From an uncultured Thermoleophilia bacterium (lineage in GTDB: Bacteria > Actinomycetota > Thermoleophilia > Gaiellales > Gaiellaceae): a stretch of DNA of 64,000 bases. Positions 24,112 through 38,872 of this stretch are shown here, piece after piece. Under the pieces are notes generated by a model that was given only the letters and a program-made list of their open reading frames with translations, made no database searches and was not told where the DNA came from. How positions within the stretch are numbered: position 1 is the first letter of the stretch; each line of letters opens with the position of its first letter. Location of the stretch: the NCBI GenBank assembly GCA_963782615.1, contig CAWAKM010000007.1, positions 1,432-65,431 of the forward strand, in the 5' to 3' direction. The position numbers were made by a program, and so were the translations under genes.

Positions 24112-24204
24112 GGAGCGGCACGGGCCCGGTGGCCCAGCAGGTCTTCAAAACCTGTGCGGTGTGGTAACCCCACGCTCGGTCGGTTCGACTCCGGCGCCGC
24201 TCCG
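24112..24204 (+). tRNA. selC: tRNA-Sec(TCA)
   Basis: 8-bp acceptor GGAGCGGC/GCCGCTCC, GCAGGT-CTTCAAA-ACCTGT anticodon arm, long variable arm, GGTTCGACTCC, G discriminator. Confidence 0.95.
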
Positions 24205-24314
24205 TCAAGCCGTTTTTGGCCTGTTGAAGCCGTTTTTCGGCTACCAGATCGATGCTTAGCCTGCCTCCGGTTCGTCCGCTCAGATCCGCTGGAATCCGCT
24301 GGTTTCTGGCCCGC

Positions 24315-24338
24315 ACTGGACCGCAGACTGGACCGCAG
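24315..24338 (+). repeat. Tandem 12-mer ACTGGACCGCAG x2 (arm-type-site-like)
   Basis: Perfect tandem copies 24315-24326 and 24327-24338, with a degenerate CTGGCCCGC just before. Confidence 0.6.
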
Positions 24339-24491
24339 CGTAAAAAGACAGGAATCACTGCGGGCCGCTTGAGCAGTCCACCCCGAGGCCGCCGCGCCAG
24401 TGTCCGCGGAATGTCACCCGAGCGGACGCTCTGCCTAAAAGGCTTTCGAGTCGCTCGGCTAAACGAACCTGCCAGGCTGCGCATCTAAGTA

Positions 24492-24989
24492 GTGATGACG
24501 CCGCAGCACGAACTGGCTGAGACGGGCTCGATCGGCGACATCGAGACGATCTACCGCGAGCAATACTCGCGATACCTTCGCTTCGCCGTCGCCAACCTTG
24601 GCGACGTCGAGCGCGGCCGCGATGCAGTCCACGAAGCCTTCGTAAGCGCGATCAAGTCAGTCGGCGACTTTCGCGGCCAGGCACGCCTCGAATCGTGGCT
24701 GTGGCGGATTCTCTTGAACGTGTGCATTGCCGAGAAGAGACGTCGAGTCGTGCCGATCGAGGACGCGCGCCTTCAGGCCGACTTCGAAGACCCCGAATGG
24801 CCCGAGATCCGCGCCGCGATCGCCTCTCTTCCGGAGAGGCAGAGGACGGTTCTCTTTCTTCGTCACTACGCCGACCTCGACTACGAGCAGATCGGCGCCG
24901 TACTCGGCATCGCCCGGGGAACAGTGGCGGCAACCCTGAACACAGCCCACACAAGGCTACGGGCCGTACTTGGAGAGGTGAAGAGGTGA
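24492..24989 (+). CDS. ECF sigma factor
   Basis: DAVHEAF, WLWRILLN (region 2); LPERQRTVLFLRHYADLDYEQIGAVLGIARGTV (region 4). Confidence 0.9.
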   Translation: MMTPQHELAETGSIGDIETIYREQYSRYLRFAVANLGDVERGRDAVHEAFVSAIKSVGDFRGQARLESWLWRILLNVCIAEKRRRVVPIEDARLQADFEDPEWPEIRAAIASLPERQRTVLFLRHYADLDYEQIGAVLGIARGTVAATLNTAHTRLRAVLGEVKR

Positions 24990-26260
24990 GTGACTACCTG
25001 ACCTGCGTCCTAGACGAGCTCGTCCCGACCTTCGCCGACGAGGGTGGCGACTGGGAACGCGTCGTCTCCGACGCTGGTGCCGAGCCTCCGACGACGACCG
25101 CGCAGCGGTCGCGCGTCGACACGGCCGCATCATCCGTGGCGCCCCGTCGAAGACATGGCCGGTGGGCGACGCGGTGGCTCACCCGTCCTCGGCTCGTCGC
25201 CATCGCCGTCACCGCTCTGCTAGCCGTGCTCCTCGTCACACCGGCGCTCGGTCTCGGTGATCGCCTCCTGAGTCTGATCCGGAGCACGCCCACCCCGCTC
25301 GACGTGCAGACACCTGCGTGGTCGCCCGACGGACGGAAGCTCGCGTTCGTGAGCCGACGCGACGGCAACTCGGAGATCTACGTGATCAACACTGACGGCA
25401 GCGGGCAGGAGAACCTGACCCAGCACCCGGCGAGGGACAGCCATCCGAGCTGGTCGCGCGACGGACGGAAGCTCGCCTTCGTCAGCCGACGCGACGGCAA
25501 CTCCGAGATCTACGTGATGAACGCCGACGGGAGCGGGCTGCGCAACGTGACACGGGCTCCGTCGAACGATCTCCGTCCGGCCTGGTCGCCTGATGGGCGT
25601 GCGATTGCGTTTGTCAAGATGATCCTGAAGAAGTGCCCGCGCCCACGCGACAAGACTCCGTGCAACAACGACGTCTACGAGCCGAACCTCTATGTCGTGA
25701 ACGGCGACGGGAGCGGGCTGCGGCGACTGACAACACAGTGGGCGTCTCTGGTCAATCCAAGCTGGTCGGCGGACGGGAAGACGATCCGGTTCGGGCGTTA
25801 TCTCGTGCAGGCCGACGGCAGCGGGCAGACAGAGCTGCCTAGGAACGTCCCGTTCGCAGGAGCGTGGTCGCCCGACGGGCAGCGGATCGCCGTCGTGTCG
25901 TTCCCCCACAGCCCCCGGGACCCAACCGTCCCCGGACTTTGGGTCATGAACGCCGACGGAAGCAACCGTCGGCAGCTGACGCGCTACGCCGTCGGGACCG
26001 ATCCCGCGTGGTCCCCGGACGGTCGCCGGATCGCCTTCCGAAGGTTCGACCGCCGGACGTCGGCGGGGAACTCAGACCTCTTTGTCGTGAACGCCGACGG
26101 GAGCGGGCTGCGACGGCTGACACACCATACGGAGAACGTGCAGCGTTGGTTCGCGTGGTCACCCGACGGGCGCACGATCGCCTTCCTGCACAACCGGGAG
26201 GTGTACATCGTGAAAGCCGACGGAAGCGATGAACGGAGGCTCACGCAGCTCAACGACTAG
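24986..26260 (+). CDS. Membrane-anchored TolB-like (PD40 repeat) beta-propeller, probable ECF partner
   Basis: GTG overlaps the sigma stop; short cytoplasmic N-terminus, one TM, repeated PAWSPDGRKLAFVS..DGNSEIYV.N.DGS. Confidence 0.85.
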   Translation: MSDYLTCVLDELVPTFADEGGDWERVVSDAGAEPPTTTAQRSRVDTAASSVAPRRRHGRWATRWLTRPRLVAIAVTALLAVLLVTPALGLGDRLLSLIRSTPTPLDVQTPAWSPDGRKLAFVSRRDGNSEIYVINTDGSGQENLTQHPARDSHPSWSRDGRKLAFVSRRDGNSEIYVMNADGSGLRNVTRAPSNDLRPAWSPDGRAIAFVKMILKKCPRPRDKTPCNNDVYEPNLYVVNGDGSGLRRLTTQWASLVNPSWSADGKTIRFGRYLVQADGSGQTELPRNVPFAGAWSPDGQRIAVVSFPHSPRDPTVPGLWVMNADGSNRRQLTRYAVGTDPAWSPDGRRIAFRRFDRRTSAGNSDLFVVNADGSGLRRLTHHTENVQRWFAWSPDGRTIAFLHNREVYIVKADGSDERRLTQLND

Positions 26261-26483
26261 TTGAGGGCGAAGCAACCCAGCGGGGTGGGCCAGGCAACAG
26301 CCGTGAGGGCGGGAAACCTCCTGTTGCCACTTGCTACACGTAGTCAACCGGTGACATCGGGCGCGGGGCCCTGCTCGCCTGCGCCAGACCGTATGGAGTG
26401 CCCGGCGCCTCTCTCGTAAGTTGGCGCGGGTTGCCGTCGGGATGGGCCCGGCGGTAGAGCCGCAATTACGGGAGGCGCCGGTT

Positions 26484-27555
26484 ATGAGCGAAGGTAGCTG
26501 GGTCGGGCTTGATGTGCACGCGCGGTCGGTGGTGGCGGGCGTGATCGATGTGGGGAGTGGTGAGGTGCGGTCGCTGCGGGTGCCGGCCGGGTCTGACGCC
26601 ACGGTGGCGTGGTTGAAGACGCTGTCGGCGCCGGTTCGGGTCGTGTATGAGGCGGGGCCGACTGGGTACGGGCTTGCGCGTGCGTGTGCCCGGGCGGGGA
26701 TCAGCTGTGTTGTCGCGGCTCCGTCGCGGATCCGGCCGGCGGCCGATCGGGTCAAGACCGACCGGCGGGACGCTGAGCGGCTAGCGAGGCTGCTTCGGTT
26801 GGGTGAGGTCACTCCGGTGCGGGTGCCGGGGCCGGAGGAGGAGGCCGCGCGTGATCTGGTCAGGGCGCGGGAGGATGCCCGTGGCGATCTGATGCGGGCT
26901 CGGCACCGGCTCTCGAAGCTGCTGCTTCGTCATGGCGCGGTGTACGACGCGACCGCGTGGACGCGGGCGCACGACGCGTGGCTTCGCCAGCAGCGGTTCC
27001 AGAGCGGCCCGCTCGCGATCGTGTTCGACGAGTGCTACGGCCGCATGGTCGACGCGAAGGCCAGGAGGGACGCGCTCGACGTGGCGATCTCCGAGCTCGC
27101 CGCGAGTGAGCCGTACGTTGGTGTCGTCGAGCGGCTCGTCTGTCTCCGCGGTGTCTCCACGCTGACGGCGTTCGCGTTGACCGTTGAGCTCGGCGACTGG
27201 AACCGGTTTCGCCCCGAGTCGCTCGGCCCGTTCCTCGGCCTCACCCCGAGCGAGAACTCAAGCGGGGAGCGGCGCCGTCAAGGCGCGATCACCAAGACCG
27301 GCAACGCGACATGCACGTCGGCTCCTGGTCGAGGCCGCCTGGCACCACCGCCGCCCGTCGCGCTTGAGCGTCACGCTGGAACGCAGACGCACAGGCAAGT
27401 CCCTCGCCGTACGAGCCCAAGCGGACCGCAGCGCCCGCCGGCTCCACGGACGCTGGCACGCGCTCGAGGCCCGAGGCAAGCCCCGCTCGATCGTCGTGGT
27501 CGCGGTCGCCCGCGAGCTCGCCGGTCACTGCTGGGCGCTCGCGACGATGGAGTAG
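26484..27555 (+). CDS. IS110-family DEDD recombinase/transposase, +1 frameshift near 27310
   Basis: GLDVH, YEAGPTG, KTDRRDA, GLTPSENSSG...ITKTGN; HARRLLVEAAW and VAVARELAG are in the next frame. Confidence 0.88.
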
Positions 27556-27604
27556 GTCGCACCAGCAACGGCTCGGCGAGGAGAGCGCACCGGCGCAACG
27601 ACGC

Positions 27605-27730
27605 GAGGAGCGACCCGAGAGAACACTGGGAGCAGCCCCATCGGCGGCCACGCTCGACGCCAGAGATCGGCACCGCTCCTCATCTCGCATACCCGGTCAT
27701 GCGGCACCAACCCGCGCATATGAGTCGCGA
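27605..27730 (+). ncRNA. Candidate bridge/seek RNA of the IS (two internal guide loops)
   Basis: Stem GAGGAGCG/CGCTCCTC encloses the target-matching guides; a TCGC/GCGA stem encloses the donor-matching guides (see findings); true RNA ends unknown. Confidence 0.7.
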
Positions 27731-27977
27731 CACAGACGTCGACGACAGCCGGTGCGCACTCCCCGCCGAGACCCGAACCCCGCAAAACAGCGAGGTGAAC
27801 AACCCCTGCCCAGTTGACAGGCCGCACTCCATATGAGAGTTCGGGAATGTCACCCGAGCGCCAAGTGAGCCTCCTTGTAACAGACTGTTACAAGGACTCC
27901 CCTCGCCGCTGGCCGAGATCGGGAACGCTCGTCTGCCCGAGCGTGCGGGAATGCCCCTGCGCGACCGGCTGCCGCCG

Positions 27978-28265
27978 CTAGCGCGTCAGCGACCCGACGT
28001 CGTCGAGGTAGTCCATCGAAACGGACGCCAGGTCGACACCGTCACGCACCATCGCCTCTTCCATCGCCGGATTCGTGGCGTCCGCCTCCGCCACCTCGCG
28101 GGAGTCGTACGTCTCTGCGAGAACAACGACGTTCGGATCGTCCTGCCCGCGCCAGATGCGCGCGGAACGTACGTGACTTCCCAGCGGCGAGGCGAAGAAC
28201 TGCTCATAGCTTTGCCGCCACGACTCATAATCGGCTACCCGGCAGCGAACAAGAATGGTCGTCAT
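27978..28265 (-). CDS. Small dimeric alpha-beta-barrel (cyclase/ABM-like) protein
   Basis: MTTILVRCRVADYESWR, IWRGQDDPNVVVL, AMEEAM..GV pattern; RBS GAGGAGG. Confidence 0.7.
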   Translation of the reverse strand: MTTILVRCRVADYESWRQSYEQFFASPLGSHVRSARIWRGQDDPNVVVLAETYDSREVAEADATNPAMEEAMVRDGVDLASVSMDYLDDVGSLTR

Positions 28266-28763
28266 GTCGCCTCCTCGACTAGGTTCGCGACACCATACGA
28301 CGGAGCGAATGGCGACACAAGCGCCGCCTGCGCGAGCGTACTTACACCCGATCGGCGAGGTTCGGTGATTCCTGATCGAGGAAGCCCGTCAGACGGAGGA
28401 CACGACGGAGGATCGCCGTATCCTGGATCTTCGGCGGTAGGCGGCTCTCGATCGCCGTGCGTTCAGCCCACTCCCGTACCTGTTGGCGCAAGTTCTCGTC
28501 TACAGCCGTGTCTCTTATGTTGACCTAGAGTGGCTTGTGTTACGCCGCGTCGCGTTTCCGTTGCTCGCGGTAGCTCCTGATCAGCGCGAGTGATCTCGGG
28601 CCGTAGCGGTAGGTGATGGAGCCGCCTGCTCCTGGCTGGCGTTCGATTGCGATGAAGCCATTGCGTTGGAGATGGGCAAGGTCGGATTCGCGGAACATGA
28701 TGTCGGCGTCCTGAGCGGCGCGTTAGGGGGCGTGGGGGCGTCGAAGCTTGACAAGTCTGAGCA

Positions 28764-28797
28764 TATCGATTATCAATATCCGTATTGTTTATCGATA
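28764..28797. promoter_or_regulatory. Imperfect 15-4-15 inverted repeat (putative XRE operator), with TTGACA at 28748
   Basis: TATCGATTATCAATA / TATTGTTTATCGATA, 13/15 complementary, AT-rich. Confidence 0.55.
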
Positions 28798-28811
28798 CGT
28801 TAGGAGTAGCC

Positions 28812-29411
28812 GTGGAAAATGGATCGTTCGACAGGTGGTTGCAGCGGTTGCGAGTGACCGCGACGATCGTCTACATCGTCGCGCTCTGCCTCGCCGTCGC
28901 AGTGCTGGTCATCGCCGTCATCCCCCACTCGCCAGTCACCACCACGTTGCCCGCCAAGGACGTGGCCGGGCTCGACCAAGTCAGCGGCTTGGCCTCCGGG
29001 ATCACCGTCGACCCTGCGGGCACGATCGCCGTCGAGATCGCCGAGCCGTCGACCGCGCAGCGGTTGCTGTACCTCGTCGTCGTGCTGCCCGGACTTGCCC
29101 TCGTCGCACTGATCGCCCGGCGGATGGCCAAGCTGCTTGGTGACGCGCTCGCGAGCGACCCGTTCACCGTCCAGACCGTCCGAGCGCTCACTGCCCTGGC
29201 CAAGGTCACCGCGATCGGCGGAATCGGCGTGTGGGCGATGAGCTACCTGGCTACCTGGGTGCTCTCGGCAACCGTCCTCGACACGGCCGGCGTCACTCGG
29301 CCACACGAGGCCCCGCTCGGCTGGCTCGCCGTTGCGCTCATCCTCGCCGCGTTCGGCCAACTCCTCGCCCGCGGAGTCGCCATGAGAGCTGAACTCGACA
29401 CGGTCATCTAG
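28812..29411 (+). CDS. DUF2975-like membrane protein
   Basis: Four TMs, DPFTVQTVRALTALA, GVAMRAELDTVI; AGGAG RBS before GTG at 28812. Confidence 0.8.
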   Translation: MENGSFDRWLQRLRVTATIVYIVALCLAVAVLVIAVIPHSPVTTTLPAKDVAGLDQVSGLASGITVDPAGTIAVEIAEPSTAQRLLYLVVVLPGLALVALIARRMAKLLGDALASDPFTVQTVRALTALAKVTAIGGIGVWAMSYLATWVLSATVLDTAGVTRPHEAPLGWLAVALILAAFGQLLARGVAMRAELDTVI

Positions 29412-29674
29412 TGACCGAACCTGCCGACCACGGCATCGAAGTGCACCTCGACAAGCTCCTCGCAGAGCGAGGCATCACCCTGGTCGAGCTCTCCACCCAG
29501 GTCGGCGTCACCGTCGCCAACCTCTCAATCCTCAAGAACGGTCACGCCCGCGCCGTCCGCTTCAGCACCCTCACTGCCATATGTGACGCCCTCGACTGCA
29601 ACCCCGGACAACTCCTCAGCCGGGCACGTCCTCCAGACGTTGACGCTGCGTCCTCAAGCTCGCGCCCGGCTTAG
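29411..29674 (+). CDS. XRE/Cro-C1 regulator (YozG-like), usual DUF2975 partner
   Basis: HLDKLLAERGITLVELS..VGVTVANLSILKNGHARAVRFSTL..IC..LDCNPG. Confidence 0.9.
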   Translation: MTEPADHGIEVHLDKLLAERGITLVELSTQVGVTVANLSILKNGHARAVRFSTLTAICDALDCNPGQLLSRARPPDVDAASSSSRPA

Positions 29675-29926
29675 CCCGCAAATGCTCGCGCAACCAGCCG
29701 AAGGAACTCGGCTTCGCCAGCGCGCTCTCGCCTGACATCGCTCGGAGGGCCAGCCGCGCTGAGGAGCGTTTCGAGGGACACGCCGCCATCATCCTCCACG
29801 ATCCACCTCTCGGTTGGCGCAAGCATTCCGGCGGAGCGCCCATGACGGGCTTCAGCCGTAGACACAGGCCGGCAGTTAAGGGAGGATCGCCGCAATGACT
29901 ATGACCTCACCGCCGCGAGTTCTCTT

Positions 29927-30784
29927 GTGAGGTCGGCGCTTCGTGGTTTCGCACTCGTCGCGATCGCTGCGGCCATCGTGCTCACGGCCGCGGTGGCAGC
30001 CGCGTCCGGGCGAAGCGTGTCCCAGATGACGCTTTCGGTCAGCCCTGCCAAGCCTGCATTAAGCTCGATAGCGACGGTGACGATCCGAGGCATCGCCGAC
30101 GAGACGGCCATGCCGGCGGTCGTGGCCGTCTCGGGCTCCGTGTGTCCGGCTCGGGTCCCGTCGCTTTCTAATGCATTCTGGTCAGAAGATTCCAGCCTCA
30201 CGCTCGGTGCATTCACGCGCAAGGTCAGGGTGTTCATCCAAACGAAGACCATGCGGCGGTTCTGTGCGTACCTCCAGCCGGCGGTGCAGGGGGTGAACGA
30301 CGGTGACCCCCCGGAGATCTCGCCCGGCGCACCGCTCGTTCGAGCCGAGGTCGCGCTTCCTCAGGCTGCCGCTGGTCCGCTCCGCGGCGTTCCGGTGTCC
30401 GGGGTCAGCGGGGGGAACCGGGACGGCCCCGGCCCGACGCTCGTGTTAGACCGCACCGGCCGCCGGATCGTGATGGTGCGAACGACCTGCGGCGGCAGCG
30501 CCCTGCACCCTCCATCTCTCGGCAAGGAGTTCATCGGCAAGCGGTTCAGCGCGCGGGTTTCTCTGCCGCTGACGAGAACCATCCGCTGGAGCGGGTTCGT
30601 CACCCCGGACAACTCGCGCAACTACGACGCTCCGGTGCCCGTCGCGTGGACGAAGCCCACACGGTTCACGTTGAACGTGAAGGTGATCGTGAAGGATGGC
30701 CTGGCGAGGGCCCTCGTCGGCACGGGCGCACTCGCGAGCCCCGGTCTGCCGTGCCCGAAGGTTCAACGCTACGTCTTCCCCTGA
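29927..30784 (+). CDS. Hypothetical secreted protein
   Basis: Signal peptide (AAA-SG); beta-rich composition with several Cys. Confidence 0.6.
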   Translation: MRSALRGFALVAIAAAIVLTAAVAAASGRSVSQMTLSVSPAKPALSSIATVTIRGIADETAMPAVVAVSGSVCPARVPSLSNAFWSEDSSLTLGAFTRKVRVFIQTKTMRRFCAYLQPAVQGVNDGDPPEISPGAPLVRAEVALPQAAAGPLRGVPVSGVSGGNRDGPGPTLVLDRTGRRIVMVRTTCGGSALHPPSLGKEFIGKRFSARVSLPLTRTIRWSGFVTPDNSRNYDAPVPVAWTKPTRFTLNVKVIVKDGLARALVGTGALASPGLPCPKVQRYVFP

Positions 30785-30979
30785 ACCGCTACGTCGTCGG
30801 CTCTGGACTAGTTTGCGCTAACTAAGTAGTTGGTTCGGCCAGAACCAGCCGCCCCAGCATCCTCTCGCGTGACCGCTGTCGGGGTGAGAGCGATCCTCAG
30901 CGGACTATCGCAAACACTGCCGCACATCGGCTCGCCATTGGTCGGAATCGACCGTCTCAAGCCGTTCTCGGCGGAATCA

Positions 30980-31060
30980 CAGCAGGTCTTCTAAACCTGT
31001 GCGGTGTGGTAACCCCACGCTCGGTCGGTTCGACTCCGGCGCCGCTCCGTCAAGCCGTTT
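30980..31060 (+). repeat. attR-like 3' copy of selC (loop CTTCTAA instead of CTTCAAA)
   Basis: Matches 24135-24215 except one base; lacks the 5' acceptor strand and D-arm. Confidence 0.9.
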
Positions 31061-31256
31061 CGGCGTCCCGAAAGGGCTTGCGACGGTTGCGGCCGTCGCG
31101 TCGATACAAGCCCTATCGCCGCCTGAGGCCGCTCAAGACCGCCTGGGGCCCGCGTGGACTTGCGAGCTGCGTGATCGAAACCGTGTGACCCCGTGGCGCG
31201 GATGTTCGTCGCACTCGCCTTTCGCCCATGGCCACGTCACAATCCGTGCGAGCGGC

Positions 31257-34067
31257 ATGGTGGAGACAGTCATCGGGCGGGACATGGAGCTTAGCTCGAT
31301 CGAGGGTTTCCTCGATCGAATCCGGGGCGGCCCAAGCGCGCTCGTGCTCTCGGGCGAGCCGGGCATCGGGAAGACGGCATTGTGGGAGGTTGGCGTCGAG
31401 GCAGCCCGGGAGCGTCACGACCGAGTGCTGACGTGCCACGGCGTCGAGGCCGAGGCGTCACTCGCGTTCGCCGGGCTCTCGGAGCTGCTCGCCCGAGTGC
31501 TCGACGAGGCCACACCGTCGCTCGCGCCACCACGGCGGCGGGCCCTCGAGGTCGCGCTGCTCCTCGTCGAGCCGAGCGGGCGCCCTCCTGACCACCACGC
31601 CATCGGGCTGGCCGTGCTCGACGTCCTGCACGCGCTGGCCGAGCACGGGACGGTTCTCATTGCGCTCGACGATGTGCAGTGGCTGGACGCGGCCTCCGCT
31701 GGCGTGCTTCAGATCGCCTTCCGCCGGCTGCGCGAGGAGCCGGTCGGGCTCCTGGCGACGCTGCGCCAGGCACCGGAGGTCGACGATCCGTTCGACCTCG
31801 ACCGTTCGTTCCCCGAGGAGCATCTCGAGCGGCTCTCGATCGGCCCGCTCACGTCCGGGGCTCTCCACCGGCTGCTCGCGGAGCGCCTCGGGCTCGAGCT
31901 GACCCGGCCGGAGCTGGCGCGCGTGCAGGAAGCGACGGCGGGAAACCCATTCTTCGCGCTCGAGCTCGGCCGCGAGCTCGTCCGCACCGGGTCGCGGCCG
32001 ACACCGGGCCAGCCGTTGCGCGTTCCCGACAGCCTCCGGGAGCTGCTCGGTGGCCGCCTCGCACGCCTGCCCGGAGAGACACTCGATGTCCTGTTGCAGG
32101 TCGCCGCGCTCGCACGGCCGACGGTCGAGGTGGTCGCGGCCGCGCACGGCGAGCGGGACCCCGTCCTCCGCGGGCTCGAGGCGGCGGTCGACGAGGGGGT
32201 CGTCGAGCTCGACGACACACGCATCCGCTTCACGCACCCGCTGTTGGCGTCGATCTGCTACGAGAAGGCGCCGGTATGGAAGCGCCGCGCCGTGCACCGG
32301 GCGCTCGCCGGAGCGGTCTCCGACATCGAGGAGCGCGCCCGCCACCTCGCACTCGCCGCAGACGGACCTGACGCAGCGGTCGCAGCGGAGCTCGACGCTG
32401 CGGCAGGCCGGGCGGCGATTCGCGGCGCTACCGGTGTCGCAGCCGAGCTCTGCGAGCTCGCGGCCGAGCTGACCCCGAGCAATCCGCCCCGGCAACGAGA
32501 ACGGCTCCTCCAGGCTGCCGCCTTCCACCGTCTCGCCGGCAACACAGAGCAGGCGGCAGCACTCCTCGAGCAGCTCCTGACGGAGGTCCCATCCGGTGTC
32601 GAACGAGCCGACATCCTCCTCGCGCTCGGCTGGACGTTCCTCACCAGGCTTCCGACGATGAAGGAACATTTCGACGACGCACTCCTCAATGCGACCGGCG
32701 ACGACGCCCGCTTGGCACGGATTCTGTCGCTGCGAAGCATGTTCCACCTGATGTCGCTCGACGTGCCGGCGGCCCTCGCGGACGCCAGAGCAGCGCTGGA
32801 GCGGGCCGAGCGGGTGGGCGACCCGGTCCTGATTGCCACTGCGATCGCGCGGGTCGGGCACGTGGAGTCGTGGGGTGCCGAGATAACACCCGGCCTGCTC
32901 GAGCGTGGTGTGCAGATCGAGCAGCAACTCACTGTGGAGCTCGACTTCATCGAGAGCCCGAGCATCCACCTCGGCAGGCAGCTGATGCGCCGCGGCGAGA
33001 TCGACCGGCCCCGTACGATCTTCGTGGAGCTGGAGGCGAAGGCGGTGGCCCGCGGGGACGAGGTGACACGGACCCTGATGCTCTGGTACCTGTCGCTGGT
33101 GGAGTGGTGCGCCGGGCGCTGGCAGCGCGCCCTCGAGCTCGTCCAGACCGCGCACGAGCTCGGTGAGCAGACACAGCTCGCAGGCAGCTACGGCCATGAC
33201 GCTCGCTTCGGCGGGCTGATTCGCGCAGATCTCGGTCTCGTCGCGGAGGCGCGTGCCTCTGCTGAGCGCGCGGTCGAGCATGCGCGGCTGAACGGGGACG
33301 AGTACTTCGTGATCCCGTCCCTCGGCGTGCTTGGGCGGCTCGAGCTCGCACTTGGCAACCTCGAAGCGGCGGCCCGCCATCTGCGCGACCTGCCCGAGCG
33401 TCTGCTTGCAGGGGGCATCAACGACCCCGGGCAACCCCTCTGGGGAGACGCGATCGAGACGCTCATCGCCGTGGGCGAGCTCGACCGTGCTCGTACCTAC
33501 CTCGAGCAGTTCAGCGTGCACGCCAAGAACGTCGGAAATCTGTACGCCGTGGCGGGAGCCGCGCGCTGTCGCGGGCTACTCGCAGCCGCGGAGGGCGACC
33601 TGGCCGGAGCGATCGCAGAGCTCGAAGGGGCGGTCGACGTACTGGCCGACGGCGGCTTTCCGGTCGAGCGCGGCCGCGCGCTGCTCTGCCTCGGGATGGT
33701 GCGAAGGCAGGCACAGCAGAAGCGCGCCGCCCGCGAGGCGCTCGAGCAGGCGCTCGTGGTCTTCGACGAGCTCGGTGCCCGTCTGTGGGCCGATAAGGCC
33801 CGCGCGGAGCTCAAGCGGATCGGCGGGCGGCGGCCCGCCCCCGACGGGCTGACCGACACGGAGGAGCGCATCTCGAGGATGGCGGCCGACGGCAGTTCCA
33901 ACAAAGAGATCGCCTCGGCGCTCTTCATGAGCGTGCGCACCGTCGAGGCTCACCTTACGAGCGTCTACCGCAAGCTCGACATCCGCTCCCGCAGCGGGCT
34001 CGCCAACCGGCTTGAACCGGTTGCGGCTGAGGCCGGCAAACCTGCGGTCGACGCGGGCGAAACCTAG
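31257..34067 (+). CDS. Large AAA-ATPase / TPR / LuxR-HTH regulator (LAL/MalT-like)
   Basis: VIGRDMEL, GEPGIGKT, IALDDVQWLD, GNPFFALEL, C-terminal LTDTEERI...SNKEIA..LFMSVRTVEAHL. Confidence 0.92.
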   Translation: MVETVIGRDMELSSIEGFLDRIRGGPSALVLSGEPGIGKTALWEVGVEAARERHDRVLTCHGVEAEASLAFAGLSELLARVLDEATPSLAPPRRRALEVALLLVEPSGRPPDHHAIGLAVLDVLHALAEHGTVLIALDDVQWLDAASAGVLQIAFRRLREEPVGLLATLRQAPEVDDPFDLDRSFPEEHLERLSIGPLTSGALHRLLAERLGLELTRPELARVQEATAGNPFFALELGRELVRTGSRPTPGQPLRVPDSLRELLGGRLARLPGETLDVLLQVAALARPTVEVVAAAHGERDPVLRGLEAAVDEGVVELDDTRIRFTHPLLASICYEKAPVWKRRAVHRALAGAVSDIEERARHLALAADGPDAAVAAELDAAAGRAAIRGATGVAAELCELAAELTPSNPPRQRERLLQAAAFHRLAGNTEQAAALLEQLLTEVPSGVERADILLALGWTFLTRLPTMKEHFDDALLNATGDDARLARILSLRSMFHLMSLDVPAALADARAALERAERVGDPVLIATAIARVGHVESWGAEITPGLLERGVQIEQQLTVELDFIESPSIHLGRQLMRRGEIDRPRTIFVELEAKAVARGDEVTRTLMLWYLSLVEWCAGRWQRALELVQTAHELGEQTQLAGSYGHDARFGGLIRADLGLVAEARASAERAVEHARLNGDEYFVIPSLGVLGRLELALGNLEAAARHLRDLPERLLAGGINDPGQPLWGDAIETLIAVGELDRARTYLEQFSVHAKNVGNLYAVAGAARCRGLLAAAEGDLAGAIAELEGAVDVLADGGFPVERGRALLCLGMVRRQAQQKRAAREALEQALVVFDELGARLWADKARAELKRIGGRRPAPDGLTDTEERISRMAADGSSNKEIASALFMSVRTVEAHLTSVYRKLDIRSRSGLANRLEPVAAEAGKPAVDAGET

Positions 34068-34114
34068 AGCTTCCACGGTTACGCTCAGCGGCGTCCCGCC
34101 GTAGCCTCAGCTCC

Positions 34115-34336
34115 ATGGTCTTCGTCGTCGAGCGGTACCTCCCGGGAGCCTCCTACAGCGAGCTTCGTCGCTCCCTCGAGCGGCTGCGCCGACAAGGCGG
34201 ACTGCGGGTGCCCTACCTCGACTCGACCACGTCACTGGCGACGAGGCCTGCCACCGACGGCTCCAAGCGCCCGCCAAGACGGCTGTCGCCGAAGCGAAGG
34301 GCGGGCCTGCCGTTCAACTGGGTCGTTCCCGCGTGA
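34115..34336 (+). pseudogene. Degenerate DUF4242-like small protein
   Basis: FVVERYLPG start and RAGLPF..VVPA end; the central GDEAC motif is in another frame (two compensating shifts). Confidence 0.5.
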
Positions 34337-34361
34337 TTGTCACGCCGAAAGGAGAGGTTCC

Positions 34362-34796
34362 ATGAGCGCTTCCACTACTGCCCCCGCGACCATCCAACTC
34401 CGGCGAGGTCACCTGTTCGTGCTGATCGCCGCCGTTACCGCGCTGACGGCCGCCGCCACGCTGGCAGTGTCAACACTCGCCTTCGACTCGAACGCGATCC
34501 GAACGGGCGAGGCGGCGCAGGCACCCGTGCAGACCCTGTTGCTGCCGTCGAGCCGGTACCTCGCCCGCATCGTCGTCAGGCCGGCGGAGGCACCCGTGCA
34601 GACGCTGTTGCTGCCGTCGAGCCGGTACCTCGCCCGCATCGTCGTCAGGCCGGCGGAGGCACCCGTGCAGACGCTGTTGCTGCCGTCGAGCCGGTACCTC
34701 GCCCGCATCGTCGTCAGGCCGGCGGAGGCACCCGTGCAGACCCTGTTGCTGCCGTCGAGCCGGTACCTCGCCCGCATCGTCGTCAGGCCGGCGTGA
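34362..34796 (+). CDS. Signal/TM-leader protein with four tandem 23-aa repeats
   Basis: RBS GAAAGGAGAGG; hydrophobic N-terminus; (APVQTLLLPSSRYLARIVVRPAE)x4. Confidence 0.7.
   Translation: MSASTTAPATIQLRRGHLFVLIAAVTALTAAATLAVSTLAFDSNAIRTGEAAQAPVQTLLLPSSRYLARIVVRPAEAPVQTLLLPSSRYLARIVVRPAEAPVQTLLLPSSRYLARIVVRPAEAPVQTLLLPSSRYLARIVVRPA
34521..34792 (+). repeat. Tandem 69-bp repeat x4
   Basis: Units start at 34521, 34590, 34659, 34728 (last truncated by the stop); one synonymous C/G difference. Confidence 0.95.
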
Positions 34797-34811
34797 GAGC
34801 GGGTCGATCGG

Positions 34812-34847
34812 GCCTGGAGAGGGGAGCAGGCCCTCCCCTCTCCAGGC
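34812..34847 (+). terminator. 14-bp perfect hairpin after the repeat gene
   Basis: GCCTGGAGAGGGGA / TCCCCTCTCCAGGC; no U-tract. Confidence 0.6.
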
Positions 34848-34866
34848 GCCGGCGGCGAACAATGAG

Positions 34867-34895
34867 TTGACGCCGACCGTGCCAAATCTCACAAT
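34867..34895 (+). promoter_or_regulatory. Putative sigma-70 promoter for the PEP-enzyme pair
   Basis: TTGACG-N17-CACAAT, then AGGAGGAGG RBS before ATG 34918. Confidence 0.5.
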
Positions 34896-34917
34896 CACCC
34901 AGGAGGAGGCGAGAGCG

Positions 34918-36771
34918 ATGACAATCGCTGATGAGCAGGCCAGCGCGGCACGATCAGGCTTCCCGAGCCCGTTCGAGGTGCCAATCCCTCCGGAGTGCGA
35001 GGGGTGGGAGGAGCTGTACACCCCCTTTAGCGTGTTCAGCGAGGACCGTCGCGCGTTTGACGAGAGCCGGTGTTGGTTCCAGCTTTCCTCGCACTACGCG
35101 GAGCCTTTCTGTCCGTTCGACGCGATCTTCTTCGAGTACGCAACGGCCGCCCTGAGCCAGTCGAGCACTCGTATCTTCGTCGTGCCGCCGTCGCTCGGTT
35201 TCGAGCTGCGGGTCCTCAACGGGTTCGTCTATCTCAGCCCCAACTCGGTCACCGACGAATTGGCGCTTGCGCACCGCGCTGAGCTGTTCGCCGCCCGCGG
35301 CGGTTTCTACTACGAGCACTGGGAGGAGCTGCTGGTCGAGTGGCAGCGTCGGGTCTTGGAGGCGATCGAGGAGCTCGGGGCGCTCGAGGTGCCGGCGCTT
35401 CCCGACCTGGAGGACGAGGCGATGGTGACCGAGGGCAGGGGCCTCGGCTCGAGCCACGCCCTCCTCCATGCCTATGACCGTCTCCTCGAAGGGTTCGACC
35501 GCATCTGCCACTACCACATGCAGTTCCAGATCCTCGCCCATGGCGCCTACATGGTCTTCTACGGCTTCTGCTGGGAGGCTTTTCCCGGGATCTCCGATCA
35601 GGCCGTCGCGAAGATGGTCTCCGGGGTCGACACCGTGATCTTGCGCCCCGACGACGAGTTGCGCCGCCTCGCGCGCCGTGCTGTCGAGCTGAGGGTGGCC
35701 GAGCGCGTGATCGGCGTGGGTAACGAGGACGAGCTGCGCGCGGCCCTCGGGACGGATGCGGCGGGGAGGCTTTGGCTGGCCGACTTCGACGAGACGAAGG
35801 ACCCCTGGTTCCACTTCTCGTATGGGAACGGGTGCTACCACCATCACCGCTCCTGGAGCGACGACACGCGGTTCCCGATCACGACGATCGCCTCGTACGT
35901 CGGGCGGCTCGAAGCGGGCGAGGACATCGCGAGGCCACAGGCCGCGATCGCCGCCGAGCGCGAACGGATCACCGAGGAGTACCGGGCGCTGCTCCCGAGC
36001 GAGCTGCAGCAGGCCTTCGACGAGCACCTCACGCTCTGTCGTACGGTCTTCCCGCACGTCGAGAGCCACGGCTTCTACGTCGACCACTGGTATCACACGC
36101 TGTTCTGGAACAAGGTGCGCGAGTTCGGCACGCTGCTCGAGCGGCACGGGTTCCTGGCCGACGCGGAGGACGTCTTCTTCCTCCAGCACGGCGAGGTGCG
36201 GACGGCGCTCGAGGAGCTCCGGGTCAACTGGAGCAGCGGGGGAGCCGGGCAGCCGCGGGGCCCGCGCTATTGGCCGCGGATCGTGGAGCGGCGCACGGCG
36301 ATCTACGAGGCGATGCGCGAGTGGACACCCCCACCCGCCCTCGGCACGGTCCCGGAGGCGATCACTGATCCGGTCACGATCATGCTGTTCGGGATCTCGA
36401 CAGAGCACCTCCAGAAGTGGCTTGGCTCGGACGATGCGGACGAGCACGTGCTGTCCGGGTTCGCCGGCTCTCCCGGTGTGGCCGAGGGTACCGCGCGGGT
36501 CGTCCTCACCCCTGACCGGCTCGGGGAGCTCGAGAAGGGGGAGATCCTCGTCGCGCCGTTCACGACGCCGAGCTGGGCGCCGGTGTTCGGCACGATCGCC
36601 GGTGCGGTCCTCGACGCGGGCGGGATCATGTCGCACGCGGCGATCGTGGCGCGCGAGTATGGCCTACCGGCGGTGATCGGGACCGGATCCGCGACGAAAC
36701 GGATCACGACGGGCGACCGCGTCCGCGTCGACGGCGGCGTGGGCGTCGTCACCATCCTCGAGAACACGTGA
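34918..36771 (+). CDS. PEP-utilising enzyme: substrate-binding region plus phospho-His swivel domain
   Basis: GFAGSPGVAEG, GEILVAPFTTPSW, GGIMSHAAIVAREYGLPAVIG, VRVDG..G.V. Confidence 0.88.
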   Translation: MTIADEQASAARSGFPSPFEVPIPPECEGWEELYTPFSVFSEDRRAFDESRCWFQLSSHYAEPFCPFDAIFFEYATAALSQSSTRIFVVPPSLGFELRVLNGFVYLSPNSVTDELALAHRAELFAARGGFYYEHWEELLVEWQRRVLEAIEELGALEVPALPDLEDEAMVTEGRGLGSSHALLHAYDRLLEGFDRICHYHMQFQILAHGAYMVFYGFCWEAFPGISDQAVAKMVSGVDTVILRPDDELRRLARRAVELRVAERVIGVGNEDELRAALGTDAAGRLWLADFDETKDPWFHFSYGNGCYHHHRSWSDDTRFPITTIASYVGRLEAGEDIARPQAAIAAERERITEEYRALLPSELQQAFDEHLTLCRTVFPHVESHGFYVDHWYHTLFWNKVREFGTLLERHGFLADAEDVFFLQHGEVRTALEELRVNWSSGGAGQPRGPRYWPRIVERRTAIYEAMREWTPPPALGTVPEAITDPVTIMLFGISTEHLQKWLGSDDADEHVLSGFAGSPGVAEGTARVVLTPDRLGELEKGEILVAPFTTPSWAPVFGTIAGAVLDAGGIMSHAAIVAREYGLPAVIGTGSATKRITTGDRVRVDGGVGVVTILENT

Positions 36772-37808
36772 GCTACGTCTTCCCTCTCGATGGCCGCGAG
36801 CCGCACCTGGCGGAGATCGTCGGCGGCAAGGCGGTCGGTCTGGGCTCGCTCCTGCGCGAGGGGCTGAGGGTGCCACCGGGGTTCGCCCTCGGCACGCACG
36901 CTTACCGCGAGATCGTAGGCGCGACCGGCCTGGACGCGGAGATCAGAGCCTTGTTGCAGGAGGCAGAGTCGCTCGAGGCTCGGGCAGAAGCCTCGGCACG
37001 GATCGGCCGGCTGTTCGAGGAACGCGAGCTGGCAGGCGCGCTGCGAGACGAGCTGGGGAGCGCCTACTCCGGGCTTGGTGACGATCTCCCCGTCGCCGTG
37101 CGATCGAGCGGGATCTCCGAGGACGCGGCCGAGGCATCGTTCGCGGGCGAGCACGAGACGTTCCTCTGGGTGGTCGGTGCCGACGCGGTCGCGCGCGCAG
37201 TGCTGAGCTGCTGGGCCAGCCTGTTCACCCCGCAGGCGCTTGCCTACTTCGGCCGCGTCGGGCTGCGCGCAGACGAGACCGCGATGGGCGTTGTGGTGCA
37301 GGCGATGGTCGACGCTGAGGCGGCGGGCGTCATGATCACCATCGACCCGGTCACGGGCGACCGGTCGCAGATCGCGATCGAAGGGTCGTTCGGCCTGGGT
37401 CAGGCGGTCGTCGCCGGAGAGGTGACGCCTGACCGCTACTACGTCGACAAGGTGACGCTCGAGATCCGCTCGCGGGTGGTCTCGGCAAAGCACTTCGCGT
37501 ACCGGTTCGATCCCGACTCGGGCGGAGTGGCCGCGTTGGAGGTGCCGCCCGAAGAGCAGGAGCTGCCCTGCCTGTCGGACGACGAGGTCGTCGCTGTCGC
37601 CGCGCTCGGGAAGCGCGTGGAACGGGCACTCGGCGCCCCGCAAGACATCGAGTGGGCAATCGGGCCCGGCTGCTCGCAATCTCGGGAGCTGTTCCTTCTC
37701 CAGGCCCGGCCCGAGACCGTCTGGAGTCACAGGCCAAGGGCAGTGGCTGCCACGGGCGGATCCGCGACGCTAGGGCGGATCGAGCACGGGATGATGAGGC
37801 GGGCCTGA
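36768..37808 (+). CDS. PEP synthase/PPDK N-terminal ATP-grasp subunit
   Basis: VGGKAVGLG, VPPGF, VAVRSS..SED...SFAGEH, VVVQAMV, VVAGEVTPD, PQDIEWA; overlaps the upstream stop. Confidence 0.9.
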   Translation: MSYVFPLDGREPHLAEIVGGKAVGLGSLLREGLRVPPGFALGTHAYREIVGATGLDAEIRALLQEAESLEARAEASARIGRLFEERELAGALRDELGSAYSGLGDDLPVAVRSSGISEDAAEASFAGEHETFLWVVGADAVARAVLSCWASLFTPQALAYFGRVGLRADETAMGVVVQAMVDAEAAGVMITIDPVTGDRSQIAIEGSFGLGQAVVAGEVTPDRYYVDKVTLEIRSRVVSAKHFAYRFDPDSGGVAALEVPPEEQELPCLSDDEVVAVAALGKRVERALGAPQDIEWAIGPGCSQSRELFLLQARPETVWSHRPRAVAATGGSATLGRIEHGMMRRA

Positions 37809-37826
37809 CTGAGATCCACGGCCAGT

Positions 37827-38700: not shown

Positions 38701-38809
38701 CGGCTCGTCTCCCGCAGGGAACTTGACTGTGGCGAGGAACGTGGCGGGAGGAGTCTCGGCGCCAGTCGAACCGCTTTCTCAAGCCGTTTGCGCCCTGGCC
38801 GCGGCGAGG

Positions 38810-38872
38810 CTTCAAAACCTGTGCGGTGTGGTAACCCCACGCTCGGTCGGTTCGACTCCGGCGCCGCTCCGT
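38810..38872 (+). repeat. Second attR-like 3' copy of selC
   Basis: 63 bp identical to 24143-24205, starting exactly at the anticodon loop. Confidence 0.9.

What the first reader, a model, noticed from the sequence alone, without database searches (positions are those of the whole stretch)
26386..27842. IS1111-type element with a fully readable bridge/seek RNA in its right end
Seen: with an AG core at both ends, the empty target is GCGCC-AG-AGTTC and the circle junction is CATATG-AG-ACCG. In the right noncoding end, a GAGGAGCG/CGCTCCTC stem (27605/27674) encloses an internal loop. One side, GAACACTGG (27621-27629), has reverse complement CCAGTGTTC, an 8/9 match to both the rejoined target CCAGAGTTC and the upstream site CCAGTGTCC. 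The other side, CGCCAGAG (27658-27665), matches the target top strand exactly. A second loop carries CGGTC (27694-27698; reverse complement of left-end GACCG) and CATATGAG (27717-27724; identical to right-end 27830-27837). Established: IS110-family recombinases are guided by noncoding RNA with target- and donor-binding loops. Inference: a new natural programmable recombinase-guide pair with an AG core, in which the reverse-complement guide precedes the top-strand guide in both loops. The transposase needs one base removed at ~27310.
Basis: partly seen in the sequence, partly recalled or inferred. Interest (0 to 1): 0.78.

Follow-up and report, generated by a model that had tools for sequence, protein, structure and literature searches.

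The report
IS1111-type element with guide RNA
This is a 1.45-kb jumping gene of the known RNA-guided IS110/IS1111 kind: its 3' non-coding end encodes a guide RNA whose short loops match its insertion site and its own ends, a clean but expected example, and this particular copy has a broken recombinase gene.

Summary
The element is window 26388-27837 (1450 bp). It has one shared AG at each junction, 10-bp subterminal inverted repeats, a DEDD/Ser recombinase gene with a +1 frameshift near 27309, and a 282-nt 3' non-coding region.

Fifty-four related copies were compared, from Gaiellales/Thermoleophilia MAGs plus one Leucobacter. The two target-loop segments follow each copy's own insertion site (0 of 20,000 shuffles reach the observed match). 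Five relatives sit in different targets and have correspondingly rewritten loops. The donor-loop segments change together with the element ends (CATATGAG to CATATCAG; ACCG to ACGG or ACCCT).

The bridge/seek-RNA reading is therefore well supported. It is not a new kind of system. The guide order is the published IS1111 order. AG is IS621's CT core read on the other strand. NCBIfam already names the protein an IS110 family RNA-guided transposase.

RNA expression and the circular intermediate could not be tested.

One side observation may be more novel. The target is a ~35-nt non-hairpin motif that separates independently assorting, cassette-like genes in same-orientation arrays in this genus. 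No integron integrase was found.

The parts
26386..26387 (+). AG core at the left junction (last two bases of the left half of the target)
   Evidence: Unoccupied sites read ...GCC-AG-YGTTC... with a single AG. The flanks of 50 occupied sites rejoin on one AG.
26388..27837 (+). Insertion sequence, 1450 bp (ACCGTATGG...CATATG-AG), IS1111 group of the IS110 family
   Evidence: Copies at 92-93% identity on contigs C8 and C2, plus a 503-bp left fragment on C3. Similarity ends exactly at these bases.
26392..26401 (+). Left subterminal inverted repeat TATGGAGTGC, 4 nt in from the end
   Evidence: Perfect reverse complement of 27824-27833. Conserved in relatives.
26484..27555 (+). Recombinase (transposase) gene, disrupted by a +1 frameshift near 27309. 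The N-terminal 275 codons are in one frame and the last ~82 codons in the next. D10, E56, D93, D96 and the S259-S260-G261 motif lie before the break.
   Evidence: Pfam DEDD_Tnp_IS110 and Transposase_20. NCBIfam NF033542 'IS110 family RNA-guided transposase', 242 bits against a 140-bit cut-off, for the intact C2 copy. Alignments. AF2 model matches the ISCro4 and IS621 synaptic-complex recombinases at E about 1e-8.
27574..27768 (+). Predicted bridge RNA core. A long closing stem (27574-27594 with 27748-27768) encloses a multiloop.
   Evidence: RNAalifold on 55 distinct sequences gave 48 pairs, nearly invariant, 4 with compensatory changes. The single-sequence fold has z = -3.9.
27605..27681 (+). 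Target-binding stem-loop (77 nt, the size of a published short seekRNA). Outer stem GAGGAGCG/CGCTCCTC, inner stems CCG/CGG and GAGC/GCTC.
   Evidence: Size comparison with the 74-96-nt seekRNAs in PMC11187229.
27621..27629 (+). Target guide 1, GAACACTGG. Complementary to the top strand CC-AG-TGTTC (core plus right half of the target).
   Evidence: 8/9 match to this copy's own site. Across 29 distinct guide/site pairs, 201 of 261 positions match against a shuffled mean of 164; 0 of 20,000 shuffles reach the observed value. Rewritten in L038, L050, L061, L067 and L073 to fit their different sites.
27658..27666 (+). Target guide 2, CGCCAG. Identical to the top strand of the left half of the target plus core, so it pairs with the bottom strand. 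It is followed by A-G-A, whose first base equals the first base of the left end (possible handshake position).
   Evidence: Across 17 distinct pairs, 79 of 102 positions match against a shuffled mean of 66.6; 0 of 20,000 shuffles reach it. CCAG becomes CTAG, CGAG or TCAG with the target. The handshake reading is not significant.
27694..27698 (+). Donor guide for the left end, CGGTC. Complementary to G-ACCG (core G plus the first four bases of the element).
   Evidence: Changes to CCGTC where the left end is ACGG (L038), and to AGGGTC where it is ACCCT (L067, L073).
27701..27715 (+). Small hairpin GCGG-CACCAAC-CCGC between the two donor guides
   Evidence: Invariant in 55 sequences.
27717..27724 (+). 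Donor guide for the right end, CATATGAG. Identical to the last 8 bases of the element, core included.
   Evidence: Reads CATATCAG or CATTTCAG in all five relatives whose right end is CATATCAG.
27778..27795 (+). GC-rich hairpin CCCCGC-AAAACA-GCGAGG downstream of the RNA core. Possible 3'-end or terminator-like stem, weakened in this copy.
   Evidence: Conserved with compensatory changes, for example GGCCCGC/GCGGGCC in L038, L050 and L061. Function is inferred.
27814..27819 (+). Invariant outward-facing TTGACA, 18 nt from the right terminus. Candidate -35 box of a junction promoter.
   Evidence: Conserved even in relatives at 52-57% identity. No acceptable -10 was found across the predicted junction, so this is only a lead (and inspection).
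27824..27833 (+). Right subterminal inverted repeat GCACTCCATA
27838..27858 (+). Right half of the target motif, AGTTCGGGAATGTCACCCGAG
   Evidence: Matches the consensus YGTTCSGGAATGnCnCCYGAG seen at 50 occupied and about 100 empty sites.
26372..26387 (+). Left half of the target motif, CTCGCCTGCGCCAG
24392..24422 (+). Unoccupied, slightly degenerate copy of the target motif (one extra base), 190 nt after tRNA-Sec
27934..27959 (+). Second, weak unoccupied motif copy about 95 nt downstream of the element
   Evidence: 22.5 bits on the motif matrix, with 0 hits in the reversed-sequence control.

Best explanation
Window 26388-27837 is a copy of an unnamed IS1111-group insertion sequence (IS110 family) that is common in soil Gaiellales/Thermoleophilia.

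Its DEDD/Ser recombinase is programmed by a roughly 200-nt RNA made from the 282-nt region downstream of the gene.

One arm of the RNA is the target-binding loop. [quoted passage not shown] Two single-stranded segments in the multiloop bind the donor. [quoted passage not shown] By analogy with IS621 and ISEc11, the element excises as a circle with junction CATATG-AG-ACCG. It then recombines at the AG (CT on the other strand) of the motif TGSGCC-AG-YGTTCSGG, without a target duplication.

This copy has a frameshifted recombinase gene. It could move only with protein supplied in trans by the intact copy on contig C2.

Shown: element boundaries, protein family, conserved RNA fold, and guide/DNA co-variation. 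Inferred: that the RNA is made and from which strand, the circular intermediate, and the chemistry.
For: Boundaries and single AG.

Protein:
- Pfam DEDD_Tnp_IS110 and Transposase_20.
- NCBIfam 'IS110 family RNA-guided transposase', 242 bits.
- D10/E56/D93/D96 and the GL-P----SG motif are conserved.
- The fold matches the ISCro4 and IS621 bridge recombinases at E about 1e-8.

IS1111 traits:
- 10-bp subterminal inverted repeats.
- 96-nt 5' against 282-nt 3' non-coding region.

RNA: conserved structure with 48 pairs; z = -3.9.

Target guides: permutation tests give 0 of 20,000 shuffles for both.
- GAG-type targets go with GAG-type guides (L022, L037).

Five naturally retargeted relatives:
- L038: site CT-AG-CTGTT, guide (reverse complement) ATAGCTGTA.
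- L050: site CT-AG-CTCAG, guide ATAGCTCAG.
- L061: site CT-AG-TAG, guide GTAGTAGGA.
- L067: site TC-AG-AAGAG, guide ACAGAAGAA.
- L073: site CT-AG-CTGTA, guide ATAGCTGTA.

Donor guides: the right-end change G to C is mirrored in all five. The left-end changes ACCG to ACGG and to ACCCT are mirrored.

Chance in this window alone: 0 of 5,000 shuffles.

Literature: IS1111 seekRNAs lie downstream of tnp with the top-strand match 5' of the bottom-strand match (PMC11187229). Bridge RNAs were predicted in the right end of 93% of IS1111 elements, often with donor-binding bases in a multiloop (PMC11208160).

Recent activity of the family: four copies with near-identical non-coding regions at different sites in one MAG (L014-L017).
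Against: - There is no expression data.
- The transcribed strand is inferred. G-U versus A-C counts in the stems do not discriminate between strands.
- Donor-guide co-variation rests on few independent events: 4 distinct classes, permutation P = 0.08 and 0.17.
- The left-end guide is only 5-6 nt long.
- No circle junction was found in public metagenome contigs. The only hits to a gapped junction pattern were an unrelated low-GC sequence.
- No sigma-70-like promoter was found in or across the ends.
- This copy's recombinase gene is broken, and parts of its RNA are slightly degraded: the 3' arm of the closing stem and the 3' hairpin.
Confidence: 0.9

Rival explanations
1. SeekRNA-only model. The RNA supplies only the target loop. 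As in the Siddiquee et al. description, the same two segments also read the target halves that flank the donor. The element ends are recognised by the protein through the subterminal inverted repeats. Under this model the internal CGGTC and CATATGAG are not functional guides.
For: The short seekRNAs that co-purify with IS1111 transposases are 74-96 nt and carry only the target matches (PMC11187229). The target arm here is 77 nt. The left-end match is only 5-6 nt. Donor co-variation has few independent events.
Against: Three different end changes are each mirrored in the RNA: right end G to C, left end ACCG to ACGG, and left end ACCG to ACCCT. The 8-nt CATATGAG repeat occurs by chance in 1.6% of shuffles. 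Durrant et al. report donor-binding bases in a multiloop for many IS1111 elements. The long closing stem holds both parts in one fold and is conserved.
Confidence: 0.08
2. The internal matches are DNA-level relics, for example old duplicated ends or protein-binding sites, and are not RNA guides. Their agreement with flanks and ends comes from shared ancestry.
For: The stems are almost invariant, so RNA structure is supported by few compensatory pairs (4 of 48). No transcript has been observed.
Against: The two target segments follow sequences that lie outside the element and differ between unrelated insertion sites. Duplication or ancestry of element DNA cannot produce that. The protein family is experimentally RNA-guided.
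Confidence: 0.02
3. The guide RNA is transcribed from the minus strand, antisense to the recombinase gene's 3' flank. The donor part would then come first and each guide would read the opposite DNA strand.
For: The stems and guide pairs are symmetric by construction. Wobble-pair counts do not favour either strand. Two weak terminator-like sites lie on the minus strand.
Against: In every IS1111 element studied, the RNA mapped downstream of tnp and on its strand (PMC11187229). On the plus strand the order is target loop then donor loop, with a 9-nt 5' guide and a 6-nt 3' guide. That reproduces IS621 exactly.
Confidence: 0.04

Closest known systems
IS1111-group elements with a 3' seekRNA (ISEc11, ISKpn4, ISPst6, ISPa11; Siddiquee et al. 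2024, PMC11187229)
   Same: Subterminal inverted repeats. Long non-coding region downstream of tnp. GL-P----S(t)G motif. A stem-loop of about 80 nt carrying a segment complementary to the top strand 5' of a segment complementary to the bottom strand, the two overlapping at the insertion point. No target duplication.
   Different: High-GC actinobacterial (Gaiellales) host. The recombinase is 356 aa, slightly above the quoted 330-350 aa. The target is a linear 35-nt motif found in cassette-like arrays, not a REP, an attC or a Tn21 inverted repeat. Nothing here has been tested experimentally.
IS621 / ISCro4 bridge recombinase with bridge RNA (Durrant et al. 2024, PMC11208160; Hiraizumi et al. 2024, PMC11208158)
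   Same: DEDD plus Ser recombinase fold (Foldseek E about 1e-8). Target loop followed by donor part. The 5' guide of about 9 nt and the 3' guide of about 6 nt read opposite strands and overlap on a dinucleotide core. That core is CT when read on the strand opposite to tnp.
   Different: The RNA lies in the right end instead of the left, so the whole recognition module is inverted relative to the gene. Donor guides sit in a multiloop rather than in a simple internal loop. The subterminal repeats are long. Protein identity is only about 18-19%.
IS1111-attC group (Tetu & Holmes 2008; Post & Hall 2009, cited in PMC11187229)
   Same: An IS1111 element that specialises on the repeated junction sites of arrays of cassette-like genes, always in one orientation.
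   Different: The junction motif here does not fold as an attC. No integron integrase was found in 10 genomes. Membership is therefore not met.
ISPpu9 / Ssr9 of Pseudomonas putida (PMC12288879)
   Same: IS110-family element with a small RNA gene downstream of the transposase, inserted in repeated extragenic sequences.
   Different: P. putida carries extra orphan copies of the RNA gene. In this genome the RNA region occurs only in the three full IS copies.

Membership tests
IS110 family (DEDD / RNA-guided transposases) | N-terminal DEDD RuvC-like domain (PF01548) and C-terminal Tnp domain (PF02371) | tested here: met
   E = 2e-16 and 7e-17. NF033542, 242 bits against a 140-bit cut-off.
IS110 family (DEDD / RNA-guided transposases) | Catalytic D, E, D, D and the Ser of the G--P----SG motif | tested here: met
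   D10, E56 and D96 are invariant and D93 and S260 are conserved in 90% or more of the aligned relatives down to 46% identity (S260 is Thr in L038, the published S(t)G variant); S259 and G261 are invariant. All lie upstream of the frameshift in the window copy.
IS110 family (DEDD / RNA-guided transposases) | Insertion without target-site duplication at a specific sequence, sharing a short core with the element junction | tested here: met
   Occupied sites compared with about 100 empty sites show one AG shared.
IS1111 group | Subterminal inverted repeats of 7-17 bp | tested here: met
   TATGGAGTGC 26392-26401 and GCACTCCATA 27824-27833, 10 bp, 4 nt from each end.
IS1111 group | The longer non-coding region, and the RNA, lie downstream of tnp | tested here: met
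   96 nt upstream against 282 nt downstream. The conserved fold lies downstream.
IS1111 group | Segment complementary to the top strand lies 5' of the segment complementary to the bottom strand | tested here: met
   27621-27629 precedes 27658-27663. The rule is from PMC11187229.
IS1111 group | Transposase clusters with IS1111 relatives in a phylogeny of ISfinder entries | not testable with these tools
   No ISfinder sequences were available. Only the GL-P----S(t)G motif typical of the group was seen.
Bridge/seek-RNA-guided recombination system | RNA loop segments co-vary with target DNA | tested here: met
   (0 of 20,000 shuffles for both guides). Five retargeted relatives.
Bridge/seek-RNA-guided recombination system | RNA segments co-vary with donor (element-end) DNA | tested here: met
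   Three kinds of end change are mirrored in the RNA. Independent events are few (P = 0.08 and 0.17).
Bridge/seek-RNA-guided recombination system | The RNA is expressed and bound by the recombinase; a circular intermediate forms | not testable with these tools
The junction was not found in metagenome contigs.
IS1111-attC group | The target is an integron attC site: an imperfect palindrome that folds, in an array next to intI | tested here: not met
   No excess complementarity (P = 0.65). Fold z-scores about 0. No TIGR02249 hit above cut-off in 10 genomes.

The most novel reading that the evidence does not exclude
The element's target may be the junction site of a previously undescribed, integron-like cassette system in this Gaiellales genus.

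The target is a ~35-nt non-hairpin motif, TGSGCCAG-YGTTCSGGAATGnCnCCYGAG. It separates single accessory genes in same-orientation arrays, and the units on its two sides assort independently between genomes.

These genomes have no integron integrase, and most have no IS110-family gene.

Under this reading the IS would be the counterpart of the IS1111-attC elements for a new kind of recombination site, and its guide would point to the conserved centre of that site.
Probability: 0.3. Interest if true: 0.7.

Novelty: new member of a known kind. Interest (0 to 1): 0.33.

Why it matters
As an element it is ordinary. It is another IS1111-type RNA-guided insertion sequence, and current annotation pipelines would already label its protein as such.

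Its modest value has two parts:
- It is a well-resolved natural retargeting series. Six target classes are read by the same RNA scaffold, across recombinases 52-97% identical. This could inform guide rules for high-GC IS1111-type bridge recombinases, including possible handshake positions.
- It acts as a pointer. Its guide marks the conserved centre of an intergenic motif that behaves like the junction of mobile gene cassettes, in an actinobacterial lineage in which no integron integrase was found here. That motif system, not the IS, is what deserves follow-up.

Tried and rejected
- **Rfam** (on the element; on two arrays): nothing relevant.
- **phmmer against PDB sequences**: no hit. Only fold comparison links the protein to IS621 and ISCro4.
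- **Circle junction in metagenome contigs**: the exact junction gave 0 hits. A gapped pattern gave 5 hits, all one unrelated low-GC sequence that happens to contain the palindromic ends. Rejected.
- **Junction promoter**: TTGACA is invariant 18 nt from the right end, but no acceptable -10 follows across the predicted junction. The promoter scan found nothing. Left as a lead.
- **attC/integron hypothesis for the target**: rejected. No integron integrase, no complementarity with upstream sequence, no folding signal.
- **Idea that an IS110-type recombinase builds the arrays**: unlikely. Five genomes with arrays among those searched have no PF01548 gene, and the RNA region occurs in only 5 of 19 genomes of the genus.
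- **Handshake-guide reading of the bases after the core in the two 3' guides**: suggestive. In four of five retargeted relatives the base after the core in the right-end guide equals the first base of the right flank. It is not significant with so few classes.
- **The match of CGGTCAT to a core-less junction ATG|ACCG**: rejected as coincidence, because CAT does not change where the right end changes.
- **L063 (Actinomycetospora)**: has a recognisable RNA and right end, but its left end could not be placed.
Full report
**1. Observation**

- outer stem GAGGAGCG 27605-27612 / CGCTCCTC 27674-27681
- GAACACTGG 27621-27629
- CGCCAGAG 27658-27665
- CGGTC 27694-27698
- CATATGAG 27717-27724, repeated at 27830-27837
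- junctions GCGCC-AG|ACCG and CATATG-AG|AGTTC

In 5,000 shuffles of the 260-nt non-coding region, the four matches occur singly in 1.6-21% of cases, the first three together in 0.02%, and all four together never.

**2. The element and its copies**

The assembly (13 contigs, 4.07 Mb) holds three full copies at 92-93% identity: the window copy, one on contig C8 and one on contig C2. A 503-bp left-end fragment lies on C3.

Aligned with their flanks, similarity starts at ACCGTATGG and ends at CATATGAG in all copies. The element is therefore window 26388-27837, 1450 bp.

Its features:
- 10-bp subterminal inverted repeats, TATGGAGTGC 26392-26401 and GCACTCCATA 27824-27833
- 96 nt of 5' non-coding sequence
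- a recombinase gene from 26484
- 282 nt of 3' non-coding sequence

State of the recombinase gene in each copy:
- C2 copy: intact 356-aa ORF.
- Window copy: one extra base near 27309, which shifts the last ~82 codons.
- C8 copy: several indels.

The protein has Pfam DEDD_Tnp_IS110 and Transposase_20. It scores 242 bits on NCBIfam NF033542, 'IS110 family RNA-guided transposase'.

D10, E56 and D96 are invariant, D93 is conserved in 90% or more of sequences, and the motif G252-L-x-P-x-x-x-S259-S260-G261 is conserved in relatives down to 46% identity (S260 is Thr in L038).

An AlphaFold2 model (pLDDT 74) has as its best PDB matches the ISCro4 and IS621 recombinases in their bridge-RNA synaptic complexes (E about 1e-8, probability 1.0). 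Sequence-only search of the PDB finds nothing.

**3. Relatives and the target**

The protein has thousands of relatives at 87-97% identity in public metagenomes.

A scan of one genome per species returned 77 loci. Almost all are from soil MAGs labelled Gaiellaceae, Gaiellales, Thermoleophilia or Actinomycetes. More distant copies come from Leucobacter (54%) and Actinomycetospora (57%).

The ends are nearly invariant. The flanks of about 50 complete copies give the target consensus (c)TCGCCTGSGCC-AG|YGTTCSGGAATGnCnCCYGAG.

About 100 unoccupied copies of this motif were found in genomes of the same genus. They read straight through with a single AG. This fixes the core and the insertion point. 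With its flanks joined, the window's site is a top-scoring motif instance (46.7 bits).

**4. The RNA**

The 3' region folds better than shuffles (z = -3.9).

On 55 distinct sequences RNAalifold gives 48 pairs:
- a long closing stem, 27574-27594 with 27748-27768;
- a 77-nt arm, 27605-27681, with an internal loop bearing the two target segments;
- a small hairpin GCGG/CCGC, 27701-27715, flanked by the two donor segments;
- a further hairpin, 27724-27746.

The stems are almost invariant; four pairs show compensatory changes.

A GC-rich hairpin further downstream (27778-27795) is conserved with compensatory changes. An outward-facing TTGACA (27814-27819) is invariant 18 nt from the terminus.

Rfam has no matching family.

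**5.

For 54 loci I extracted the four segments, the flanks and the ends.

Target guides:

| Guide | Compared with | Distinct pairs | Positions matching | Shuffled mean | Shuffles reaching observed |
|---|---|---|---|---|---|
| Guide 1 (reverse complement) | target positions -4 to +5 | 29 | 201/261 | 164 | 0 of 20,000 |
| Guide 2 | last six bases of the left flank | 17 | 79/102 | 66.6 | 0 of 20,000 |

The signal comes from two sources.
- Small variants: targets ending GAG go with guides CGCGAG and, in part, CGAGTGTTC.
- Five relatives that sit in quite different sites and have rewritten loops:

| Locus | Site | Guide 1 (reverse complement) | Guide 2 |
|---|---|---|---|
| L038 | GGCT-AG-CTGTT | ATAGCTGTA | TCCTAG |
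| L050 | CTCT-AG-CTCAG | ATAGCTCAG | CTCTAG |
| L061 | GCCT-AG-TAG | GTAGTAGGA | TCCTAG |
| L067 | GATC-AG-AAGAG | ACAGAAGAA | CCTCAG |
| L073 | AGCT-AG-CTGTA | ATAGCTGTA | TTCTAG |

Donor guides:
- All five of these relatives have the right end CATATCAG and an internal CATATCAG (CATTTCAG in L073).
- L038 has left end ACGG and guide CCGTC.
- L067 and L073 have left end ACCCT and guide AGGGTC.
- With only four distinct classes, permutation cannot reach significance (P = 0.08 and 0.17). Each change is nevertheless compensatory.

Bases after the core:
- The bases after the core in guide 2 begin with A, and are AC or ACC in many copies. These are the first bases of the left end.
- In L038, L050, L061 and L067 the base after the core in the right-end guide equals the first base of the right flank. 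It does not in L073, and in the main group it is T, as in most but not all right flanks.
- This resembles the handshake guides of IS621 (PMC11208158), but it is not significant here.

**6. Comparison with what is known**

- Siddiquee et al. (PMC11187229) showed that IS1111 elements carry the long non-coding region downstream of tnp. It yields a 74-96-nt seekRNA that co-purifies with the transposase. In IS1111 the segment complementary to the top strand lies 5' of the one complementary to the bottom strand, the reverse of IS110-type elements.
- Durrant et al. (PMC11208160) predicted bridge RNAs in the right end of 93% of IS1111 elements, often with donor-binding bases in a multiloop. They defined the IS621 layout: a 5' guide of 8-9 nt on the bottom strand, a 3' guide of 4-7 nt on the top strand, and a CT core.
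- Read on the strand opposite to tnp, the present system is that layout exactly: core CT, a 9-nt 5' guide and a 6-nt 3' guide.

The order of guides and the AG core are therefore family traits, not novelties. The element is a new, unnamed member of a known kind. Other agents of this scan reached the same verdict for similar elements in other genomes; I treat those notes as leads only.

**7. What could not be shown**

- Expression, the transcribed strand and the circular intermediate are all untested.
- Wobble-pair counts do not settle the strand.
- The predicted junction is absent from public metagenome contigs. The five hits to a gapped pattern are an unrelated sequence.
- No promoter-like site was found.

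**8. The target motif: a side finding that may matter more**

Distribution:
- The motif occurs in 15 of 19 genomes of the genus and is essentially absent from other genera of the order.
- The IS RNA region occurs in only 5 of the 19.
- Five genomes with arrays among those searched have no IS110-family gene at all.

Arrangement:
- Copies lie in same-orientation runs 0.4-2 kb apart.
- Each interval holds one, sometimes two, co-oriented genes of the kinds typical of accessory cassettes: DUF899, two GNATs, peptidase S51, YCII, cupin, YecM.
- The stop codon lies about 20-35 nt before the motif and the next start codon about 25-45 nt after it.

Independent assortment:
- Among 90 distinct instances, 20 pairs have homologous flanks.
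- Nineteen of those 20 are homologous on one side only: 8 upstream, 11 downstream.
- The homology ends at the motif edges.
- The units on the two sides of a motif therefore assort independently between genomes.

The motif is not attC-like:
- no excess complementarity with upstream sequence (P = 0.65);
- fold z-scores near 0;
- no integron integrase above cut-off in 10 genomes.

Its right half is a quasi-palindrome, TTCGGG-AATGTCA-CCCGAG.

In the window, tRNA-Sec (24112-24204) is followed in order by:
- a degenerate motif copy (24392-24422);
- a sigma-factor-like ORF (judged from its translation only, not searched) and a TolB-like gene;
- the occupied motif;
- a weak motif copy (27934-27959).

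What recombines these sites is unknown.

**9. Verdict**

Novelty is low: a new member of a known kind, and this copy is defective. Interest is modest. The motif arrays are flagged for separate follow-up.

Noticed in passing
window 24392-24422, 26372-26387 + 27838-27858, 27934-27959; loci L112-L128 (e.g. L112 2696-18846 minus strand, L113 520-6039 plus strand): A ~35-nt non-hairpin motif, TGSGCCAG-YGTTCSGGAATGnCnCCYGAG, separates single co-oriented accessory genes in arrays in 15 of 19 genomes of this genus. In 19 of 20 pairs of instances with homologous flanks the homology is on one side only, so the units assort independently like cassettes. There is no integron integrase and no attC-like fold.
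   Followed up: partly
window 24112-24204 and 24495 onward: tRNA-Sec (selC) lies 190 nt upstream of the first motif copy. The next genes look like an ECF-type sigma factor followed by a TolB-like beta-propeller protein, so this first 'cassette' holds two genes. Another first-reader note calls 24112-38872 two islands stacked at selC.
   Followed up: partly
window 27873-27895: Perfect inverted repeat CCTTGTAACAG-A-CTGTTACAAGG, about 35 nt downstream of the element, between the occupied motif and the weak motif copy. Possible operator or terminator; not examined.
   Followed up: no
L018 (contig JAICXJ010000096.1) and L053: Two copies of the IS about 1 kb apart in one orientation, as expected if neighbouring motif copies of one array are both occupied.
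   Followed up: no
L040, L058, L066 right flanks: In three loci the right half of the target is replaced a few bases after the insertion point by a shared sequence, ...CTCCTATG(N)TGTCAAG.... This suggests another element inserted next to, or into, the same motif.
   Followed up: no
L043 and L052 (1501-2568): The recombinase genes of these two relatives contain internal out-of-frame stretches that return to frame (paired frameshifts). This may be decay or long-read indel errors.
   Followed up: no
L063 (Actinomycetospora lutea, NZ_JAQZAL010000010.1): A relative at 57% identity with a recognisable RNA and right end (CATATCAG). Its left end could not be located, and its two target segments imply inconsistent cores (CG versus AG).
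   Followed up: partly
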